A stretch of 16,020 nucleotides of DNA from a virus. Below the pieces are notes generated by a model. The model did not search any database. It was not told the DNA's origin and was given only the letters and a program-made list of their open reading frames with translations. The translations under genes were made by a program, and so were the position numbers. The DNA lies in UHGV virus genome UHGV-0044882. The stretch is one strand, 5' to 3'. This document shows positions 3,955-16,020 of this stretch, piece by piece (position 1 is the first letter of the stretch; every line of letters starts with the position of its first letter).

Positions 3955-4620
3955 TTAAAGATCCGGATCTACAGGCTCATGATATAGATTTACAGGGTAA
4001 TGAATAACTTCATAATTCAGTTGAGTAACTGTGTGAACATGCTGGCTATAAAAAACCAATGGATTTTTTTGACAAGGAGTAATCGTTATAGATTTACAGG
4101 CATGAATTCTTGGTGCGAATTTATCTAAATGCGCCTTCCAGTTGCTCATCATTTCATTACATTTTCTATTACGAGTATAGATAATCAATCCACCACTTGC
4201 GCTGTCTACGGTCCCTGTACTATATCGTTCAGTGAGTTGAGCATACCCTTTAAATAAATAACTATATGAAGATGTATGTTTTTTGGCTTCGCCATGCCAA
4301 ATATAATCCTTTAGTTTTATTGTAATATCACAATGTCCGCGCTGATTATTTTCATGAAATGCTTCAATGCCCATATCTTTATTTTTGATATTGGCCAATA
4401 AAATTAAAGTAAGCTGATCTTCTGTTAAATCGAAGTTTAACTTATTTGAATTCTCTTCTATTTCCTTTACAGCAGAATCAAGTTCAATCCTGACAAATTG
4501 TTTGAAATTATCGTACGATTGAAGTGCAAATCTAACACGAGTAATAGAAGCATTAATACGCTGAAGAAAAATATCATTATCAATATCAGCCAAACTCATT
4601 GCTGCAGACATTTTTAACAT
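3955..4620 (-). CDS. Hypothetical protein, third gene of the AT-rich operon; weak PD-(D/E)xK-like nuclease motif
   Basis: 221 aa, ATG 4620..4618 overlapping the stop of the upstream gene (ATGA), stop TAA 3957..3955. Segment GHCDITIKLKDYIWHGEAKKH has a D then E-x-K spacing compatible with a PD-(D/E)xK core; this is inference by eye, not a domain hit. Confidence 0.6.
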   Translation of the reverse strand: MLKMSAAMSLADIDNDIFLQRINASITRVRFALQSYDNFKQFVRIELDSAVKEIEENSNKLNFDLTEDQLTLILLANIKNKDMGIEAFHENNQRGHCDITIKLKDYIWHGEAKKHTSSYSYLFKGYAQLTERYSTGTVDSASGGLIIYTRNRKCNEMMSNWKAHLDKFAPRIHACKSITITPCQKNPLVFYSQHVHTVTQLNYEVIHYPVNLYHEPVDPDL

Positions 4621-5054
4621 CAGATAATATCCTTTGATTTAGATTCATCTAATGTAAAAAAAGGAAATACGAATGACTTATAGTCATACATAAGCTCCCC
4701 TGTAAATGGGTTTGCTAAAGATTGACTGATTTCCGCCTCAATAACTTCCTCTATTTCAAGTTCTACAGGGTCATGAAAATCATCAATGAACCAATAATTG
4801 AGTTTTAAAAAATCAACCTTTGGGCTACAAAGAATTTGTATGGCCGGATAGATAACCTGCTCATACGTTTCTGGCTGTAAAACCTTATTATAACCACCAG
4901 CTATATTAAATAAATCCTTATAACTTAAGGCTATATTTGATGATTTTTTAGCCCTTGCCTCGATTTCATCGTACAAATAGCAAGCTAACGCCCCAATTTC
5001 AGGGCGTTCTGCACACATTTCTTTGATGATCTTGGGCATATCACCATCCTTCAT
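4620..5054 (-). CDS. Hypothetical small acidic protein, middle gene of the AT-rich operon
   Basis: 144 aa from ATG 5054..5052 (track lists a TTG start at 5066). GGAG 7 nt upstream. Stop TGA overlaps the start of the downstream gene at 4620. No recognisable motif. Confidence 0.55.
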   Translation of the reverse strand: MKDGDMPKIIKEMCAERPEIGALACYLYDEIEARAKKSSNIALSYKDLFNIAGGYNKVLQPETYEQVIYPAIQILCSPKVDFLKLNYWFIDDFHDPVELEIEEVIEAEISQSLANPFTGELMYDYKSFVFPFFTLDESKSKDII

Positions 5055-5066
5055 TGCTGACTCCAA

Positions 5067-6173
5067 TTATAATATCAGCTTTGTGAGGGTTTCGAAATCA
5101 TCTTTGGATATACATTTACTTAATATAGCATAGTTAACAGGAGAGCAACTACTCCCTCCTAGATGCCTGCGGAGTGTTCCCGGAATGATAAGCTCTACGT
5201 TATCCGCTAATTGCAGTTTTGGATTATTTCTATCAACTCTAATTCCAATACGATACAAACCAATACTGCCTACTGCTTTGATGCCTTCCTTATTAAACAA
5301 ATCATCACGTAAGTCTTTAGTGGCCACATTTTTCTTTTCTTTATGCGTAGTCCCCTCATTCGTCAAAAATGACAAATCAAAGACTTTATAGCTTAATTTT
5401 GAATAAGGCAATGAATTTTGTTTGAAAATTAGCTCAATTAACGGATAAAAATCTTTTTCCGATGATTTAAATTCATAACCGACATGATTATACAATTCAC
5501 GAATAATGTTACTCTTTGCAAAAGTAACATTATCACCAATAATATTACCATTAGTATCTACCAAAACATGAATTTTATTAGTAACAGAGTCTAATATACA
5601 GACATCAAAACATTGTCGCTTTTCTTTTCGCTTTGCAATAATTTCATCAAACTGCTTGTATTGCGCAAGTGCTGACGGGGGAATTTTTTCTCTTACAACT
5701 AATTCTCTGACAGATGAAAAAACAAGTATTGACTGGGTGTTTTGAATAGAATAATTAACAAGTTCAGGTTGATTTTTTACAGCATTTTGCAATTGGACAT
5801 CATCAAGGATCGAATCAACCAATAATGATGGTTGATTCATCAAATTCCATTGAAAACTAAATCTGTCATTTAGTGTTTTAATTACACTATTATCTACAGT
5901 CAAACTAAATATTGCTTTTTCACCATAAACGACCTGACCAAAAATTAGGTCATTTACGTTTGCCATAATGCCATCAAACTTTTGCCTATCTTTACTTTTA
6001 AGATCAATGAGGCTTTCTAGTATTTTTTCGTTTGTTGCTTCACGCCCCCTACCTGTTGGCAGCCCTAAAGACGCAATAATTGGCCTTGCAACGTTCCATG
6101 TGAAACGTTCAGTTAAGGTCAAGATCGACTTTAACTCAGACTCAGAAAGCACTACTGGGACACTACCTGTCAT
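5067..6173 (-). CDS. Hypothetical protein, first and largest gene of the AT-rich operon
   Basis: 368 aa from ATG 6173..6171 (track lists GTG at 6182), AGGTG 7 nt upstream, stop TAA 5069..5067. No Walker A, HExxH or nucleotidyltransferase motif found by eye. Confidence 0.62.
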   Translation of the reverse strand: MTGSVPVVLSESELKSILTLTERFTWNVARPIIASLGLPTGRGREATNEKILESLIDLKSKDRQKFDGIMANVNDLIFGQVVYGEKAIFSLTVDNSVIKTLNDRFSFQWNLMNQPSLLVDSILDDVQLQNAVKNQPELVNYSIQNTQSILVFSSVRELVVREKIPPSALAQYKQFDEIIAKRKEKRQCFDVCILDSVTNKIHVLVDTNGNIIGDNVTFAKSNIIRELYNHVGYEFKSSEKDFYPLIELIFKQNSLPYSKLSYKVFDLSFLTNEGTTHKEKKNVATKDLRDDLFNKEGIKAVGSIGLYRIGIRVDRNNPKLQLADNVELIIPGTLRRHLGGSSCSPVNYAILSKCISKDDFETLTKLIL

Positions 6174-6322
6174 AACTTGCACCTAGTCATCCAAAAAGCA
6201 ATAAGAATTTGCTCTTGTCTTAATTTATCCTTCGATACCTAACAAATTACCTCAATGTTGAAAAAATTTGCAAGCCATTTGCTTCTAAAAAGCGACCTTA
6301 CTCAGAGTGTTACAAAACTAAG

Positions 6323-6351
6323 CGAGCGCGCGCTCGTATCCCCGCCACGCC
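6323..6351 (-). other. Candidate cos (cohesive end) site with adjacent GC palindrome
   Basis: Reverse complement of 6333..6351 is GGCGTGGCGGGGATACGAG. Its first 13 nt match the 186 cohesive end as I recall it (GGCGTGGCGGGGAAAGCAT); 14 of 19 match P2 (GGCGAGGCGGGGAAAGCAC). The G-rich strand is the one expected downstream of Q. A 14-bp palindrome cgagcgcgcgctcg sits at 6323..6336. Confidence 0.45.
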
Positions 6352-6372
6352 TGCCCGCTTTGTGTAGTGGTT

Positions 6373-6476
6373 TTCATGCAGGTGCATGACATAAGCAAAA
6401 GCCCGCCAGAACTGGCGGGCCTGCATCAAAACGATCCTCAAACGATCATGCGTTCTCATGCAGCATAGTCATGCAC
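6373..6476. repeat. Cluster of short iterated motifs beside the cos-like site
   Basis: TCATGCA(G/C) at 6374..6381, 6456..6463 and 6469..6476, plus an inverted copy at 6383..6390 forming a dyad with the first. AAACGATC direct repeat at 6429..6436 and 6440..6447. Confidence 0.4.
6396..6420 (-). terminator. Rho-independent terminator, minus strand
   Basis: Stem gcccgccag / ctggcgggc (6401..6420). On the minus strand it is followed by TTTTGCTTAT. Confidence 0.45.
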
Positions 6477-6637
6477 GGATGAGAGAAATGAATGCGCGTA
6501 TCCAAATGCCCGTTAGAAAAACGCAGATGAACTAAAAAAGCTTAAGGTCTACTATGAGCGAGAAACGGACATTTAATTTTCGAGTAGTGGAAATCGAAGC
6601 CAGTACCTGCCGGAGCCATAGTATCGAAACCACGAAC

Positions 6638-6664
6638 AATAAAAAGCCTGGAAATATCCAGGCT
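6638..6664 (-). terminator. Rho-independent terminator after the oxidoreductase gene
   Basis: Stem agcctgg / ccaggct with loop aaatat (6645..6664). On the minus strand it is followed by TTTTTAT, 36 nt after the stop at 6700. Confidence 0.6.
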
Positions 6665-6699
6665 GCGCAAGACTCATTTATAGAATGCTGCGGTAAGGA

Positions 6700-7692
6700 T
6701 TACTCAACGGTCACAACTATTTTGCCGACCTGTCCATTGGACTCCATATAGCGCTGGGCGTCTGCAATCTCTTCGAACGGGAACGTCTTATCGATGACCG
6801 GCTTCAGTTTGCCGACTCGCAAGCCTTCTGTGATAAAGGATTTAGCGCGCGCCATTTTTTCAGAGTCCGTCGTGATTTCAAACAGCTCATATCCACGCAG
6901 GGTGAGATGCTTACCGAGAATATCAAATACAGGCACAAGCATGTCACGGCTATCGAGCGCGCCGTACTGGAAAAACATACCCTGTGGTGCCATCACCTGC
7001 GTCAGTTTTGCCACGTCCGGCCCACCGACGGGATCAAAAACAATATGGGCACCTGCGCCATCTGTTGCACGACTGATTTCAGCAACCATATCCTGCTCCG
7101 CAGTAGCAATGACGGCGGCTGCGCCAGCTTTAAGGAGCATTTCGCTTTTTTCAGAGGTCCGTGTGAGTGCAATTGGGTTTGCACCCAGCATGTTAGCAAT
7201 CTGTATGGCAGCCAGACCCACGCTGCTTGATGCTGCGCGGATCACGACATTCTGACCAGCCTGAAGGTTGCCATACTCAACCAGCGCACCATAAGCGGTG
7301 ACATACATCATCCAGCTTGCGGCGGCTTCCTCGAATGAAAGGTTTTCAGGATGCTTTACGACAGCATGAACCGGTGCGTTGACCACTTCACCATACATGC
7401 CGTATTCATTAAACATAAATGAAGGGATCACGCTTACCCGATCTCCAGTGGTAAACTCATCTACATTCTCACCTACTGCCTGTACAACGCCGGCCGCTTC
7501 ATAACCAAGACGTGCCGGAAATTCCGGCTCAATAACATATTGGCCGTTGCGGTACATGATTTCTGCACGGTTGATACCTATCGCATGTACGCGGATCTGC
7601 ACTTCACCCGCTGTCGGTGCAGGCACCTGCACATCAACAACTTCCAGCACTTCCGGGCCACCGGTGCGGTTAAAGGTAATAACTTTAGACAT
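6700..7692 (-). CDS. MDR-superfamily NAD(P)H:quinone oxidoreductase-like (zinc-type alcohol dehydrogenase family)
   Basis: 330 aa from ATG 7692 (track TTG at 7698). N-terminus MSKVITFNRTGGPEVLEVVDV and a Gly-rich nucleotide-binding stretch AASSSVGLAAIQ resemble E. coli Qor-type quinone reductases. Confidence 0.85.
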   Translation of the reverse strand: MSKVITFNRTGGPEVLEVVDVQVPAPTAGEVQIRVHAIGINRAEIMYRNGQYVIEPEFPARLGYEAAGVVQAVGENVDEFTTGDRVSVIPSFMFNEYGMYGEVVNAPVHAVVKHPENLSFEEAAASWMMYVTAYGALVEYGNLQAGQNVVIRAASSSVGLAAIQIANMLGANPIALTRTSEKSEMLLKAGAAAVIATAEQDMVAEISRATDGAGAHIVFDPVGGPDVAKLTQVMAPQGMFFQYGALDSRDMLVPVFDILGKHLTLRGYELFEITTDSEKMARAKSFITEGLRVGKLKPVIDKTFPFEEIADAQRYMESNGQVGKIVVTVE

Positions 7693-7841
7693 ATTCAACT
7701 CTCTTCAGTTAAAGGCACACCTTCAGAATAATGCCGAAGGGATGCCCGAATCATTTGTGAACAATCTACGTTGTTACGAACACACCAGAAATAGCTGAGA
7801 GGGAACTTCAGTATTAATTATCCATTAACAATCCGCCTGCT

Positions 7842-8744
7842 TCAGCGGATCTGCGTGGCCAGAATATCACTGAACCAGTCGATAAAGACGCGCACTTTTG
7901 GAGAAAGGTAGCGCCTGTCGGGATACATCACTGACACGGGCTTTGACACCGATGGGTATTGCGGCAGAATCTCTTCAAGAGCGCCGGAAGCAATATGGGG
8001 AGCAACGGCATCATAGGTAGCCTGGATAATGCCCAGACCAGCCAGAGCACAAGAAAGCAGAATATCGGAATTATCAACCAGCAGGCTGCCCGCAGGACGT
8101 AGCGAAACAATGCTCCCGTCTTCGATAAACTTCCATTCCATGACGTCACGACTGTGGTCGCTAAAAAAGTTAATTGCCCGATGTTTATCCAGATCCGCAA
8201 GTGTTTCTGGCCGCTCATGCTGCTGCAGGTAAGACGGGGCTGCACAGGTAACCATCCGGATGTCACCAAGACGTCTGGATATAAAACTAGAATCTTGAAG
8301 CGCCCCCAGGCGGACAAGGCAATCTACGCCTTCCGTAATCAAATCAGTTTTTTTATCGGAAGAAACCAGCACAACTTCAATACCTGGATACAGTGCCTGA
8401 AAATGCCTGAGATTAGGGATCAATATGGAATGCGCCAGCGCCAGGGGCACATCAAGTCTCAGGCGTCCTCGCGGTGGAAGTGTCGGTGAAAAACTGGCCA
8501 TCATGTCATTAACTTCGGCCAGAACATGCCTAGCATGATGATAGAACTCATCCCCTTCAGCAGTAACGCTCAGCTTTCGGGTTGTGCGATAAATGAGTTT
8601 TACACCCAGATCATGCTCTATCTGCTGTATCGCTTTGCTCACAGTGGGGCGATGAATCTGAAGTACATCAGCAGCTTTCGTGAAGCTACCCTGCTCAACA
8701 ACCTGTATGAAAATATTTAGGTATTCAATCATGTTGGCATGCAC
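7842..8744 (-). CDS. LysR-family transcriptional regulator (LTTR)
   Basis: About 300 aa. N-terminal HTH signature VVEQGSFTKAADVL..PTVSKAIQQIEHDLGVKLIYRTTRKLSVTAEG followed by a co-inducer domain. Start is GTG 8744 (AGGTGA 5 nt upstream) or ATG 8732. Confidence 0.85.
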   Translation of the reverse strand: MHANMIEYLNIFIQVVEQGSFTKAADVLQIHRPTVSKAIQQIEHDLGVKLIYRTTRKLSVTAEGDEFYHHARHVLAEVNDMMASFSPTLPPRGRLRLDVPLALAHSILIPNLRHFQALYPGIEVVLVSSDKKTDLITEGVDCLVRLGALQDSSFISRRLGDIRMVTCAAPSYLQQHERPETLADLDKHRAINFFSDHSRDVMEWKFIEDGSIVSLRPAGSLLVDNSDILLSCALAGLGIIQATYDAVAPHIASGALEEILPQYPSVSKPVSVMYPDRRYLSPKVRVFIDWFSDILATQIR

Positions 8745-14113: not shown

Positions 14114-14623
14114 TCACAGCAAACCGAATGAAGCACCAAGACCAGTCATGGTATCAACTGCACTCGCCATCGCAGGATTAGCCTGTAAACGGGCCTGTAA
14201 TGAAACAGCAGCCAGCGCCATCAGTCGTGTAACAGAGTTAATGCTGCTGATCGCATCACGACGGCCTGCACTGGTTTTTACATCGCCAGAAACCGCACCT
14301 GCCGCGACACGTCCTATCTCTGCAGTTGCACTCATGACGTAATGCGGCAGTTTCTCTTTTGCTACCTCATTAATCGGTACACATGGCAGGCAGTGAATCT
14401 GTGCCAGAAAACCATCTACCAGCGTTGAATCTTCAGTCAGATCGGTAAGCAACCAAATTTCTGGTGCGGTTAATAAATGAGGTTGAGCTGGGTTCAGTTT
14501 GTTCCGCAGAATCTGCACATTCATGCCTGCACGTTCTGCCAGTTGCACCAGATTGTGGCGCAGTGCGAATGCACGACAGGCTTCATCAAAATGTGGATGT
14601 TTGGAAACTTGGTAATCAAACAT
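14114..14623 (-). CDS. CII-like lysogeny-establishment activator (186 CII family); alternatively a P2 B-like early protein
   Basis: 169 aa from ATG 14623 (track TTG at 14632), GGAG upstream. Second gene of the early rightward-type operon, directly after the Apl/Cox-like gene, as cII is in 186; length equals the 186 CII length as I recall it. Confidence 0.6.
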
Positions 14624-14687
14624 GGTTTTCAACTCCGAACTTATCGCAAAATCGAACTCAGCGTCTTATTGCGAAAATAGACGTCTA

Positions 14688-14891
14688 TTAAGCAGACAAA
14701 GCATCAACAGTCAGAGCAGCCAGGTTAATCATTACCTTTTCACGTTTTTTGTCTTTACGAAGACGATGACGAGGTAGTCGGCCATCAGCCAACATGTCGT
14801 TAATCGTATCAATAGAAAGGCCAGTCAGTTCGCTATAACGTTCGATTGTGACATGTGGTGTATTCAGAGTAATTGAAATGTTAGGTGTCAT
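14688..14891 (-). CDS. Apl/Cox-like excisionase and transcriptional regulator
   Basis: 67 aa with an HTH-like segment [24 protein letters not shown] resembling the P2 Cox DNA-binding region. First gene of the early operon, divergent in position from the repressor gene. Confidence 0.65.
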
Positions 14892-14974
14892 AAGGCAACA
14901 TTCCTTCTAGATATGGCTTGTGGCGAGCCGTTGTTTGTCGTGATTAGTAGTGAAGGCTCCAAAAGAACACTTCT

Positions 14975-15009
14975 GGTTCAACTTTAAGATCGCTTTTGGA
15001 ATCTGTCAA
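14975..15009 (-). promoter_or_regulatory. Candidate early lytic promoter (pR/Pe equivalent)
   Basis: Minus strand: -35 TTGACA (15009..15004), 17-nt spacer, -10 TAAAGT (14986..14981). Sits 28 bp upstream of the cI start and points toward apl, as in the 186 face-to-face switch. Confidence 0.4.
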
Positions 15010-15036
15010 CGAATTTTGGATTTCTTTGGAGGACTT

Positions 15037-15606
15037 GTGGATTTCAATAGCGGCGGTAAGAAAGCCATAGAACGTTTAGTTGAAGCATATGGGTTCGGTA
15101 CCCGTCAGGCTCTCTGTGATCATTTAGGTGTTTCTAAGAGCACCATGGCAACGCGCTATATGCGTGATATTTTTCCAGCAGATTGGGTAATCCAGTGCGC
15201 CCTTGAAACGGGCACCTCGCTTAATTGGCTAACAACAGGGCATGGTTCAAAGCAAGCATCAGCAAATACAAATACTATGGAAGTTGCTAAATATGTATTA
15301 TCTGATGGGGCCTTGTGTGAAGACGGTTTTTATATTTTCGATAGGGAATTTCTACCGTCGGCATTCAAGAATATTTTTGCAATCACAGATAATAATTCTG
15401 AATTTATTTGTGATAAGGAATTTGATGATATACGTGATGGTAAATGGGTAATAAGTATTGATGGCGAAATAACGATCCGTGACATTACTCGTTTACCCGG
15501 TGGAAGAATCTTCGTCGAGGGTGGAAACAGAGCCTTCGAATGCAAGATAGAAGACATTGAAATAATTGGTAAAATTATAAGTTTAACAGTCAAGTATGTT
15601 AAATAG
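15037..15606 (+). CDS. cI: CI-type immunity repressor (186 CI family)
   Basis: 189 aa from GTG 15037 with GGAGGA 4 nt upstream (the longest ORF starts at GTG 14950). N-terminal HTH region [23 protein letters not shown] and a C-terminal oligomerisation-type domain. Length is close to 186 CI (192 aa). Confidence 0.72.
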
Positions 15607-15622
15607 TACCGGGAGGAAAACT

Positions 15623-15814
15623 ATGCTTGGTAAGGTATTTTTTGTGGTTTTGTCATGTTCTTTGTTATTAAACCCACTAACTACCTATGCTAGAAATTAT
15701 CCCTGTTCAGGGAAAAAGGGAGGTGTTTCTCACTGTACCTCAGATGGCAAATTTGTTTGCAATGATGGAACTATTAGTAAATCCAAAAAAATCTGTACTA
15801 AAAACTCACGATAA
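15623..15814 (+). CDS. Small secreted Cys- and Lys-rich peptide (predicted signal peptide)
   Basis: 63 aa from ATG 15623 with GGAGGA upstream. Hydrophobic N-terminus [23 protein letters not shown], then a roughly 40-aa mature part with 4 Cys. AT-rich. It lies where int directly follows cI in 186. Confidence 0.45.
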
Positions 15815-16020
15815 CTTTTGCTTTTATATCTGCGCCTAAAATAAAAATGAGCCGCAGGTTAACCGCAAAAATTACATGCTCACATAGCAAAAAGAATAGC
15901 CAACTTAATTATGGCTTCAGTGAGATGTATGGTCGTAGGATTTCATACATTGACACTGGTTATACATGGGTCTTCCCCGATCATGGTGGGAAGGCTCAGA
16001 ACTCCATATTCAGCTTACCG

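What the first reader, a model, noticed from the sequence alone, without database searches (positions are those of the whole stretch)
15623..15814. Small secreted cysteine-rich peptide gene downstream of cI
A 63-aa ORF with a strong SD, a typical signal peptide and a Lys- and Cys-rich mature part of about 40 aa (4 Cys) lies directly after cI in an AT-rich stretch, where int directly follows cI in 186. It could be a lysogenic-conversion factor expressed from the repressor transcript in the lysogen, for example a periplasmic peptide, a toxin or bacteriocin-like peptide, or a superinfection-exclusion factor.
Basis: inference. Interest (0 to 1): 0.5.

Follow-up and report, generated by a model that had tools for sequence, protein, structure and literature searches.

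The report
Prophage YdcA-family secreted mini-protein gene
The small gene after the phage repressor is real: it encodes a secreted, disulfide-rich mini-protein of the already catalogued YdcA family (function unknown), a common add-on gene in E. coli prophages related to phage 186, so it is not a new kind of element.

Summary
The 63-aa ORF at 15623..15814 is real. It has a GGGAGG Shine-Dalgarno 6 nt upstream and lies 16 nt after the cI stop. It scores above the curated cut-off of NCBIfam NF007463, matches phrog_6000, and RefSeq already calls the identical protein (WP_000900883.1) "YdcA family protein". Purifying selection is strong (11 synonymous vs 1 nonsynonymous change between alleles, dN/dS about 0.02). 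Its DNA is found in 631 of 5426 complete E. coli genomes, about half of those with a 186-like cII, between cI and int in every locus inspected. An unannotated homolog sits directly after cI in Haemophilus phage HP2.

The protein is a Sec signal peptide plus a 40-aa basic domain with four invariant Cys. [quoted passage not shown] In other bacteria the same domain is the N-terminus of three unrelated secreted nuclease families.

The cI–int gap is a cargo and defence hotspot: relatives carry PD-Lambda-1, a KAP NTPase or other genes there. My best reading is a lysogen-expressed periplasmic binding protein. Its exact role (phage exclusion or envelope fitness) is unresolved, and a toxin or bacteriocin is unlikely. 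This is an ordinary member of a known family, with a few useful new links.

The parts
15037..15606 (+). cI repressor gene (GTG start, 189 aa), the upstream gene of the presumed lysogenic transcript
   Evidence: Pfam Phage_CI_repr 2.3e-31 and Phage_CI_C 1.4e-26. RefSeq annotates the same coordinates as 'phage repressor protein CI' in the identical prophage L002.
15611..15616 (+). Shine-Dalgarno GGGAGG, 6 nt upstream of the ATG at 15623, within the 16-nt cI-ORF spacer
   Evidence: Read directly from the sequence. The spacer is conserved in 6 other prophage alleles as GGGAGG or TGGAGG.
15623..15691 (+). Coding region of the predicted Sec signal peptide (residues 1-23, [23 protein letters not shown]); predicted signal peptidase I cleavage after Ala23
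   Evidence: Hydrophobicity profile. Ala at -1 is invariant, while the rest of the leader diverges freely among 27 homologs. It is not a lipobox: Leu at -2, the Cys is at position 12, and the second allele group has I/F/V at -1.
15692..15814 (+). Mature YdcA domain (40 aa, [40 protein letters not shown]) plus the stop codon
   Evidence: NF007463 115.8 bits against a cut-off of 93; phrog_6000 1.9e-34. P27 C28 S29 K32 G33 G34 C38 F44 C46 D48 G49 S52 S54 K55 C58 are invariant. The AF2 model has pLDDT 85 and superposes on Dis2 7muc_AN over 36 columns, RMSD 1.5 Å, TMq 0.70.
15815..15967 (+). AT-rich spacer downstream of the ORF, shared with uninterrupted prophages; it holds a minus-strand terminator-like hairpin at 15868-15852
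   Evidence: Identical to L002 up to 15967. No + strand terminator-like site was found here. GC is 35.9%.
15968..16020 (.). End of an ISL3-like ISEc53 insertion that separates the ORF from int; not part of the gene, but it changes the operon
   Evidence: The first mismatch to the uninterrupted prophage is at 15968. The same junction occurs in strains N32 and CE10, where RefSeq annotates an 'ISL3-like element ISEc53 family transposase'.

Best explanation
The ORF is a cargo gene (a 'moron') of a 186-like P2-family (Peduoviridae) prophage. It encodes a member of the YdcA family (NCBIfam NF007463/PRK10040, Pfam PF27300, phrog_6000).

Proposed working, with shown and inferred steps marked:
1. The gene sits 16 nt after cI with its own strong SD and no intervening + strand terminator-like or promoter-like site (shown). 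It is therefore transcribed with cI from the lysogenic promoter in lysogens (inferred by analogy with the 186 pL/pE operon).
2. The precursor is exported by Sec and cleaved after Ala23 (predicted).
3. The 40-aa, strongly basic mature domain folds in the periplasm around its four invariant cysteines, presumably as two disulfides (inferred from the Dis2 relative, whose lobes are disulfide-pinned).
4. The domain is a small periplasmic binding module that acts at the inner face of the outer membrane. This is inferred from its fold relative Dis2, which docks on the outer-membrane lipoproteins DotC, DotD and DotK, and from its use as the N-terminal module of secreted nucleases.
5. As a stand-alone prophage protein it most likely changes an envelope property of the lysogen. 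The two leading options are exclusion of incoming phage or foreign DNA at the envelope, and envelope or acid-stress fitness. The evidence does not separate them.
For: Family membership:
- NF007463 115.8 bits above the cut-off of 93; phrog_6000 1.9e-34.
- PF27300 'YdcA' is pre-assigned to the homologs.
- RefSeq names WP_000900883.1 'YdcA family protein'.

A real, selected gene:
- dN/dS is 0.02-0.15 in all allele pairs with any nonsynonymous change; neighbouring cI gives 0.06-0.25.
- The mature domain is near-invariant while the leaders diverge.

Cargo character:
- GC is 34% against 48% for the window.
- The ORF DNA is in 631 genomes, against 1299 with a 186-like cII.
- It is absent from 186 itself.
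- Relatives carry other genes in the same cI-int gap: PD-Lambda-1 in vB_EcoM-813R9, a 349-aa protein in Klebsiella phage 4LV2017, and a KAP NTPase (PDC-S20) added after YdcA in E. coli and Klebsiella.
- The gene recurs independently right after cI in Haemophilus HP2/S2, while HP1 has four other ORFs there.
- It lies in the head/tail late gene region of Moraxella and Acinetobacter temperate phages.
- 505 IMG/VR viral contigs encode a relative.

Operon logic:
- The 186 annotation shows the lysogenic operon.
- The scan found no + strand promoter-like or terminator-like site between cI and the ORF.
- HP2 has an ATGA stop/start overlap with cI.
- In uninterrupted prophages a 12-bp hairpin plus U6 precedes int.

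Periplasmic binding module:
- Dis2 is the top PDB hit by sequence profile (E 2e-4 with the leader, 0.011 without).
- hhalign gives 78% probability.
- A Dis2 homolog carries PF27300.
- By structure: 36/36 columns, RMSD 1.5 Å, TMq 0.70, probability 0.98; the next unrelated hit has TMq 0.30.
- Dis2 lies near the outer membrane, is disulfide-pinned, and contacts DotK, DotC and DotD (PMC8486379, PMC12716638).
- The domain is fused N-terminally to SNase, Endonuclease_NS and PLD-type nucleases.

Precedent: K139 Glo is a periplasmic exclusion protein encoded between cI and int, and the cI-int gap of K139-like prophages is a described defence hotspot (PMC9122126).
Against: - No expression, localisation or phenotype data exist for the prophage copy. 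Signal-peptide cleavage and disulfides are predictions.
- There is no PADLOC hit and no similarity to Glo, so an exclusion or defence role rests only on position and analogy.
- The family also has chromosomal, non-prophage members (K-12 ydcA; P0052 in a housekeeping context). This argues for a general envelope function rather than a phage-specific one.
- In this window the IS cuts the operon after the gene, so the prophage may be defective.
Confidence: 0.75

Rival explanations
1. Specific reading A: a superinfection-exclusion or anti-foreign-DNA factor. The mature mini-protein docks on an outer-membrane-associated protein or complex in the periplasm. That blocks genome entry of other phages, or DNA uptake or transfer, so it protects the lysogen.
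For: - It occupies the slot in the lysogenic operon where K139 encodes Glo, annotated 'periplasmic protein; involved in phage exclusion'.
- Relatives carry the known defence system PD-Lambda-1 and the PADLOC candidate PDC-S20 (KAP NTPase) in that slot.
- The fold relative Dis2 binds outer-membrane lipoproteins of a T4SS (PMC12716638).
- The gene recurs in temperate phages of several genera.
Against: - No PADLOC match and no homology to Glo.
- Chromosomal housekeeping-context paralogs exist.
- No phenotype data are available.
- P2 and 186 use LPS as receptor (my own knowledge), so no obvious protein target is known.
Confidence: 0.25
2. Specific reading B: an envelope or acid-stress fitness factor (classical lysogenic conversion). 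It duplicates the role of chromosomal YdcA and benefits the host under organic-acid or low-pH stress.
For: - In E. coli W, deletion of chromosomal ydcA caused severe growth reduction in 300 mM 3-hydroxypropionate.
- ydcA is reported to be induced at pH 5 under YdcI control (both points from PMC7642389).
- The mature domain closely resembles that of the K-12-type protein (the sequence [36 protein letters not shown] is among the family representatives).
Against: - This rests on a single study and no mechanism is known.
- It does not explain why the domain is attached to nucleases or built into a T4SS cap.
- E. coli already has a chromosomal copy, so the benefit of a second copy is unclear.
Confidence: 0.2
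3. Specific reading C: a periplasmic or extracellular polyanion (DNA) binding module. The basic domain binds nucleic acid, which would explain its fusion to nucleases. As a free protein it would bind or sequester DNA in the periplasm or at the cell surface.
For: - The mature part has 9 basic against 2 acidic residues, pI 9.7.
- The domain is fused N-terminally to three unrelated nuclease folds: SNase in P0109, Endonuclease_NS in P0153 and P0191 plus one more protein, and PLDc_2 in P0170.
- It co-occurs with the basic PBCV_basic_adap domain.
Against: - Nuclease fusions are about 5 of the 150 best representatives.
- In Dis2 the domain makes protein-protein contacts, not DNA contacts (PMC12716638).
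- An anchoring role would explain the fusions equally well.
Confidence: 0.12
4. A secreted toxin or bacteriocin-like peptide that kills competitors.
Against: - It has a Sec-type leader, not a double-glycine leader.
- No immunity, modification or export gene is adjacent; the neighbours are cI and int, or the IS.
- The same domain is a repeat unit or module in larger periplasmic proteins and a structural T4SS subunit.
- Chromosomal copies sit alone in housekeeping contexts.
Confidence: 0.04
5. A spurious ORF in AT-rich intergenic DNA, or an outer-membrane lipoprotein processed at the L-S-C in the leader.
For: The DNA is AT-rich and the ORF is short. The motif V-L-S-C in the leader looks superficially lipobox-like.
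Against: - dN/dS is 0.02-0.15 where measurable and the HMM score is above the curated cut-off.
- The Cys is at position 12, with Leu at -2.
- The second allele group has I/F/V at -1, and most homologs have no Cys in the leader at all.
Confidence: 0.02

Closest known systems
E. coli K-12 YdcA and the YdcA family (NCBIfam NF007462/NF007463, PRK10040; Pfam PF27300; phrog_6000)
   Same: It has the same architecture: a Sec leader plus a single domain of about 35 aa with the motif PCSGxKGG[IV]SHC...F[VI]CNDG[ST]xSxSKKxC and four invariant Cys. It scores above the NF007463 cut-off, and RefSeq gives the identical protein this name.
   Different: It is encoded in a prophage lysogeny module rather than at the chromosomal cybB-rydC-ydcA locus (bioRxiv 10.1101/2024.02.12.579971). 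It falls below the cut-off of NF007462, the K-12-type model (68.5 against 118). The function of the whole family is unknown.
Legionella pneumophila Dis2 (Lpg0823), outer-membrane-cap subunit of the Dot/Icm T4SS (PDB 7MUC/7MUD)
   Same: Each Dis2 lobe has the same fold and motif (CSKMGGINYC...RLVCNNGFYS). The model superposes over 36 of 36 columns, RMSD 1.5 Å, TMq 0.70, 42% identity. Dis2 is the top PDB hit by profile, and a Dis2 homolog carries PF27300. Dis2 is also Sec-exported, disulfide-rich and periplasmic (PMC8486379).
   Different: Dis2 has two lobes with five disulfides and is a stoichiometric part of a T4SS. This protein has one lobe and four Cys, and no T4SS is nearby. The Dis2 literature calls the protein Legionella-specific with no obvious homologs (PMC12716638).
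Vibrio phage K139 Glo
   Same: It has the same genomic logic: a gene for a periplasmic protein between cI and int in the PL lysogenic operon of a P2/HP1-family phage. It is annotated as involved in phage exclusion.
   Different: There is no sequence similarity (BLASTP E 0.16). Glo is 137 aa and lies after orf2 rather than directly after cI.
Unannotated ORF of Haemophilus phages HP2/S2 (NC_003315, complement of about 2486-2668; L001 2920..3102)
   Same: It is a homolog (54% identity, E 1e-18; phrog_6000 6.6e-23) at the same position, directly after cI with an ATGA overlap and before int.
   Different: It is followed by another secreted-looking protein, orf1(S), before int. It is not annotated in the GenBank records.
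Cargo and defence hotspots of P2-like prophages (Rousset et al. 2022, PMC9122126; NAR 2026 gkag898, PMC13586616)
   Same: The cI-int gap varies between close relatives and holds PD-Lambda-1 or PDC-S20 (KAP NTPase) in some of them. [quoted passage not shown]
   Different: YdcA is not a recognised defence gene: it has no PADLOC hit and is not mentioned in PMC13586616.

Membership tests
YdcA family (NCBIfam NF007463 / PRK10040.1-2; Pfam PF27300) | Whole-protein HMM score above the curated cut-off | tested here: met
   115.8 bits against a cut-off of 93, E 5.3e-34, covering model positions 1-58 of 58. PF27300 'YdcA' is pre-assigned to close homologs, including the 98%-identical P0001. The local Pfam copy lacks PF27300, so that model was not run directly.
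YdcA family (NCBIfam NF007463 / PRK10040.1-2; Pfam PF27300) | N-terminal signal peptide followed by one ~35-aa domain with four conserved Cys and the PCSGxKGG / FxCxDG / SxSK motifs | tested here: met
   Alignment A1 has invariant A23, P27, C28, S29, K32, G33, G34, C38, F44, C46, D48, G49, S52, S54, K55 and C58. The same motifs appear in 59 representatives.
phrog_6000 (phage protein family, unknown function) | HMM match over the full profile | tested here: met
   E 1.9e-34, profile positions 1-56 of 56.
Dis2 (Lpg0823)-type T4SS outer-membrane-cap subunit | Fold of a Dis2 lobe | tested here: met
   Foldseek of the mature-domain model against PDB gives 7muc_AN as the top hit: 36 columns, RMSD 1.5 Å, TMq 0.70, probability 0.98, E 0.18. 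hhalign probability is 78%.
Dis2 (Lpg0823)-type T4SS outer-membrane-cap subunit | Two tandem lobes pinned by five disulfides | tested here: not met
   This protein has a single domain with four Cys. Dis2 has two lobes (PMC8486379; P0228 and P0229).
Dis2 (Lpg0823)-type T4SS outer-membrane-cap subunit | Association with a Dot/Icm-type T4SS | tested here: not met
   The neighbours are cI, int or the IS, and other phage genes. No T4SS genes are in the window. The host genome as a whole was not examined.
Lysogenic-operon cargo gene ('moron') of P2/HP1-family phages (K139 Glo type) | Located between cI and int on the same strand, without its own promoter or a preceding terminator | tested here: met
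   The gap after cI is 16 nt and the scan found no + strand promoter-like or terminator-like site in it. The order cI-ORF-int holds in L002, L007, L010, L011 and L093-97.
Lysogenic-operon cargo gene ('moron') of P2/HP1-family phages (K139 Glo type) | Present or absent, or replaced by other genes, among close relatives; atypical base composition | tested here: met
   It is absent in 186. Other cargo occupies the gap in vB_EcoM-813R9 and 4LV2017. HP2 and HP1 differ there. GC is 34.4% against 47.6%.
Lysogenic-operon cargo gene ('moron') of P2/HP1-family phages (K139 Glo type) | Expressed in the lysogen and confers a phenotype (exclusion or virulence) | not testable with these tools
   This needs RNA-seq or proteomics of a lysogen and phage-plating assays.
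Lysogenic-operon cargo gene ('moron') of P2/HP1-family phages (K139 Glo type) | Sequence homology to Glo | tested here: not met
   BLASTP E 0.16, 23% identity over 30 residues.
Known or candidate anti-phage defence proteins (PADLOC-DB 2.0) | Match to any defence-protein HMM | tested here: not met
   0 families at E <= 1e-3, whereas the neighbouring-slot proteins of relatives match PDC-S20 and PD-Lambda-1.
Bacteriocin / microcin | Dedicated leader (for example double-glycine) with adjacent immunity and export genes | tested here: not met
   The leader is Sec-type with Ala at -1. The adjacent genes are cI and int or the IS. Antibacterial activity itself cannot be tested here.
Bacterial lipoprotein | Lipobox [LVI][ASTVI][GAS]C at the end of a 15-25 residue leader | tested here: not met
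   The motif is V-L-S-C with the Cys at position 12 and Leu at -2. The second allele group has I/F/V at -1, and most homologs have no Cys in the leader.

The most novel reading that the evidence does not exclude
YdcA-domain mini-proteins could be a widespread, unrecognised class of periplasmic 'docking' modules. In this reading, temperate phages of Enterobacteriaceae, Haemophilus, Moraxella and Acinetobacter deploy them from lysogeny or moron slots. The proteins would bind outer-membrane lipoprotein complexes, as Dis2 binds DotC, DotD and DotK, and thereby block entry of competing phages or foreign DNA. The same module would target secreted nucleases to that site. That would make this gene the founding member of a new envelope-level exclusion family. 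It would also show that Dis2 is not Legionella-specific.
Probability: 0.15. Interest if true: 0.6.

Novelty: new member of a known kind. Interest (0 to 1): 0.33.

Why it matters
The gene itself is ordinary and already annotated, so the window holds no new kind of element. Three by-products could still be useful.

1. About one in nine complete E. coli genomes, including E. coli B and BL21, carries this prophage copy in the lysogenic operon. A function for YdcA would therefore explain a very common accessory trait.
2. The Dot/Icm subunit Dis2 is described as Legionella-specific and without structural neighbours. It appears to be a tandem duplication of the YdcA domain, which gives both proteins a context.
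3. The domain's fusion to three unrelated nuclease families, and its position in a defence and cargo hotspot, give concrete hypotheses that can be tested cheaply for a family that has had none.

Tried and rejected
- Local Pfam-A: no significant hit, only GULLO2-like_3rd at E 0.075. The family model PF27300 is newer than the local copy.
- NCBIfam lpg1681_fam at E 0.11: rejected. It is insignificant, and lpg1681 is a 105-aa protein with two transmembrane helices.
- Foldseek with the full-length model: Dis2 was top but weak (TMq 0.39), because the leader helix was included. Repeating with the mature domain gave a clear match.
- LDL-receptor class A repeats score nearly as well as Dis2 in the mature-only sequence search (E 0.02-0.07). 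I treat this as Cys-rich composition noise, because they are not structural hits.
- PADLOC on the ORF: nothing.
- Rfam on 14600-16020: only sub-threshold CRISPR-repeat noise.
- Megablast of cI plus the ORF against isolated phages: only the IS end matched, so no sequenced phage isolate carries this immunity region.
- Pseudomonas phage Y12 tblastn hit: rejected as phage cargo. It is host DNA (GNAT and metallo-beta-lactamase-like ORFs; my own reading, not database-checked) at the end of an 'UNVERIFIED' record.
- E. coli 'plasmid' hits: these carry rcdA-ybjJ and look like chromosome pieces.
- The Acinetobacter plasmid p3ABAYE context was uninformative.
- The UniRef name 'Conjugal transfer protein' for the cluster could not be traced to any T4SS context. 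I treat it as an annotation artefact.
- The IMG/VR scan returned only near-identical E. coli prophage ends among the best 80 loci, so it added counts but no new contexts.
- The literature search for HP2 gave nothing on this ORF.
Full report
**1. The observation**

The ORF is present exactly as described. ATG 15623 to TAA 15814 on the + strand encodes the 63-aa protein [63 protein letters not shown]. GGGAGG (15611-15616) lies 6 nt before the ATG. The stop of the upstream gene is at 15604-15606, so the gap is 16 nt.

The upstream gene is a 186-type cI repressor (Phage_CI_repr 2.3e-31, Phage_CI_C 1.4e-26). It is followed leftwards, on the other strand, by an Apl/Cox-like gene and a CII/CP76 gene. 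The region is AT-rich: 34.4% GC for the ORF, against 47.6% for the window and 53-57% for two other phage genes, the terminase and the replication gene.

An ISL3-like ISEc53 element starts at 15968, 36 nt before the place where int begins in uninterrupted copies of this prophage.

**2. It is a real, selected gene and it is already named**

- The protein scores 115.8 bits on NCBIfam NF007463 (PRK10040.1-2), whose cut-off is 93.
- It matches phrog_6000 over the full profile, E 1.9e-34.
- Its close homologs carry the precomputed Pfam label PF27300 'YdcA'. The local Pfam copy predates that model and gives nothing.
- RefSeq annotates the identical protein WP_000900883.1 as 'YdcA family protein' between 'phage repressor protein CI' and 'phage integrase'.
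- Across seven prophage alleles, dN/dS is 0.02-0.15 in every pair that has any nonsynonymous change. The window against E. coli BL21-AI gives 11 synonymous and 1 nonsynonymous difference. Over all pairs with differences, the adjacent cI ranges 0.06-0.25, and in most pairs the ORF is under the stronger constraint of the two.
- In an alignment of 27 homologs the leaders diverge freely, but Ala at -1 and 15 positions of the mature domain, including all four Cys, are invariant.

**3. Distribution and context**

The ORF's DNA is found in 631 of 5426 complete E. coli genomes. A 186-like cII is found in 1299, so roughly half of these prophages carry the gene. E. coli B and BL21 are among them.

In every locus inspected the order is cI - ORF - int. 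It is coupled to at least two different cI/apl immunity types. A second allele group (61 aa, different leader, same mature domain) occupies the same place in E. coli and Klebsiella prophages, followed by a KAP-family NTPase and then int.

Close relatives of the window's phage carry something else in the gap:
- a 558-aa protein in vB_EcoM-813R9 that matches the defence system PD-Lambda-1 (3e-120);
- a 349-aa protein in Klebsiella phage 4LV2017.

The KAP NTPase matches the PADLOC candidate PDC-S20 (1e-171). The cI-int gap is therefore a cargo and defence hotspot. This fits the hotspot described between cI and int of K139-like Vibrio prophages (PMC9122126). [quoted passage not shown] That paper does not mention YdcA.

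Outside the enterics, tblastn against 50,697 phage records finds homologs of the mature domain in several groups:
- 20 Moraxella catarrhalis phage records and three Acinetobacter temperate phages. In the two loci I inspected (Mcat17 and Ab11510-phi) the gene sits among head and tail genes, a typical moron position.
- The P2-family Haemophilus phages HP2 and S2.

In HP2 the homolog is an unannotated 60-aa ORF (54% identical, E 1e-18; phrog_6000 6.6e-23). It starts in an ATGA overlap with the cI stop and precedes orf1(S) and int. The sister phage HP1 has four unrelated ORFs in that gap.

The same family has thus been captured independently at the same operon position in two distant branches of Peduoviridae. 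IMG/VR holds 505 viral contigs that encode a relative.

The family also has plainly chromosomal members. P0052 sits among housekeeping genes. K-12 ydcA is a 57-aa predicted periplasmic protein of unknown function next to rydC (bioRxiv 10.1101/2024.02.12.579971).

**4. What the protein is**

Residues 1-23 form a Sec-type leader (hydrophobic core, T-Y-A, invariant Ala at -1). The L-S-C inside it is not a lipobox: the Cys is at position 12, Leu is at -2, and other alleles have I/F/V at -1. The predicted mature product is 40 aa and 4.3 kDa, with pI 9.7 and 9 basic against 2 acidic residues.

A profile search of all PDB sequences puts one protein first: Dis2 (Lpg0823) of the Legionella Dot/Icm T4SS. 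The E-value is 2e-4 with the leader and 0.011 with the mature domain only. LDL-A repeats come next at 0.02-0.07, which I regard as Cys-rich noise.

Three further lines agree:
- hhalign of the domain profile against a Dis2 homolog gives 78% probability.
- That homolog carries the PF27300 label.
- The AlphaFold2 model of the mature domain (pLDDT 85, no templates) superposes on a Dis2 lobe over all 36 columns, with RMSD 1.5 Å, TMq 0.70, 42% identity and Foldseek probability 0.98. The next unrelated hit has TMq 0.30.

**5. Domain architectures**

An exhaustive profile search of 1.84 billion representatives finds 459 clusters at E <= 1e-3. Most are small single-domain proteins with low-complexity tails. 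Some have two or three tandem domains, like Dis2 (P0079-P0083).

In several proteins the domain directly follows the leader and precedes a nuclease:
- SNase (P0109);
- Endonuclease_NS (P0153, P0191 and one more);
- a PLD/Nuc-type domain (P0170).

Others carry a VasL C-terminal domain, DUF4124 or the basic PBCV_basic_adap domain. Attachment to three unrelated nuclease folds says the module either binds the substrate, a polyanion, or places the enzyme at a site in the envelope.

**6. How it most likely works**

Shown:
- position, SD, and no + strand promoter-like or terminator-like site in the 16-nt gap after cI;
- conservation, and the cargo character of the gene;
- the fold relationship to Dis2.

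Inferred:
- co-transcription with cI from the lysogenic promoter, as in the 186 pL/pE operon;
- Sec export and cleavage after Ala23;
- two disulfides;
- action as a small binding protein at the periplasmic face of the outer membrane.

In uninterrupted prophages a 12-bp hairpin followed by U6 (-19.4 kcal/mol, z -4.6) lies immediately before the int ATG and covers its SD. This suggests that cI and the ORF form the constitutive part of the transcript and that int is gated. In this window that hairpin lies beyond the IS.

Which envelope property changes is open. The slot and the K139 Glo precedent ('periplasmic protein; involved in phage exclusion') favour exclusion. The only phenotypes for any family member favour a stress-fitness role: ydcA deletion is 3-hydroxypropionate sensitive, and ydcA is induced by acid through YdcI (PMC7642389). 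The nuclease fusions and the charge allow a DNA-binding reading. A bacteriocin or toxin is unlikely, for the reasons given under the rival explanations.

**7. Comparison with what is known, and novelty**

It is a member of the YdcA family: every defining feature that could be tested was met. It works like a lysogenic-operon moron such as K139 Glo but is not homologous to it. It shares a fold with Dis2 but is not a Dis2-type T4SS subunit, since it has one lobe and no T4SS nearby. It is not in PADLOC.

It is therefore a new member, strictly an already annotated member, of a known kind with unknown function. The modestly new points are:
- the Dis2-YdcA link;
- the unannotated HP2/S2 homolog at the same operon position;
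- the nuclease fusions;
- the documentation that the cI-int gap of 186-like prophages is a cargo and defence hotspot in which YdcA is the commonest occupant.

**8. Verdict**

| Item | Score |
|---|---|
| Confidence: lysogen-expressed, Sec-exported YdcA-family periplasmic cargo protein | about 0.75 |
| Specific function: exclusion | 0.25 |
| Specific function: stress fitness | 0.2 |
| Specific function: DNA binding | 0.12 |
| Specific function: toxin | 0.04 |
| Interest | 0.33 |

Noticed in passing
window 15968-16020 (continues beyond the window): The end of an ISL3-like ISEc53 element is inserted 36 nt upstream of the int start codon. It splits a promoter-like TTGACA (15950-15955) from its -10. 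It also separates int, and the hairpin that precedes it, from the cI-ORF transcript. The same junction is in strains N32 and CE10, where a ClbS/DfsB-family gene lies between the IS transposase and int. The prophage may be locked in place.
   Followed up: partly
   Followed up: yes
L002 7074-7103 (uninterrupted copy of this prophage, just before int): A 12-bp hairpin followed by U6 (-19.4 kcal/mol, z -4.6 against shuffles) ends 1 nt before the int ATG and sequesters the int Shine-Dalgarno. It could be a terminator or attenuator that uncouples int from the cI-YdcA transcript. The simple terminator scan missed it.
   Followed up: partly
window 15602->15574, minus strand: A strong sigma-70-like site (TTAACA, 17 nt, TATAAT; 11 of 12 matches) at the 3' end of cI points antisense into cI. 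It is conserved in L002. It may be a chance match in AT-rich DNA or an antisense promoter.
   Followed up: no
window 3955-8744, minus strand: Five ORFs (221, 148, 371, 332 and 300 aa; 41.9% GC) lie between the portal gene and the replication gene. This is the classical P2 defence hotspot between GpA and GpQ. None matches PADLOC, so they may be an uncharacterised cargo or defence cluster.
   Followed up: partly
L093 4198-5529; L103 2291-3967: Other occupants of the cI-int gap in related prophages are a KAP-family NTPase, 12 nt after the YdcA gene (PADLOC candidate PDC-S20, 1e-171; weaker matches to PifA and QatA), and a PD-Lambda-1 protein (3e-120) in phage vB_EcoM-813R9.
   Followed up: partly
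P0109, P0153, P0191, P0170 (representative proteins): The YdcA domain occurs as the N-terminal module, right after the signal peptide, of secreted nucleases of three unrelated folds: SNase, Endonuclease_NS and PLD/Nuc-like. Tandem 2-3 domain proteins also exist (P0079-P0083).
   Followed up: partly
PDB 7MUC/7MUD chain AN (Dis2, Lpg0823); P0228, P0229: Dis2 of the Legionella Dot/Icm T4SS is published as species-specific with no structural neighbours. It looks like a tandem duplication of the widespread YdcA domain.
   Followed up: yes
L107 780..1118 (record OQ572413, 'UNVERIFIED: Pseudomonas phage Y12'): The YdcA-plus-PBCV_basic_adap-like ORF at the start of this phage record is flanked by ORFs that look like host genes: a GNAT acetyltransferase, a metallo-beta-lactamase-like protein and a kinase-like protein. 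This is my own reading of the translations, not database-checked. The record seems to include host DNA.
   Followed up: partly
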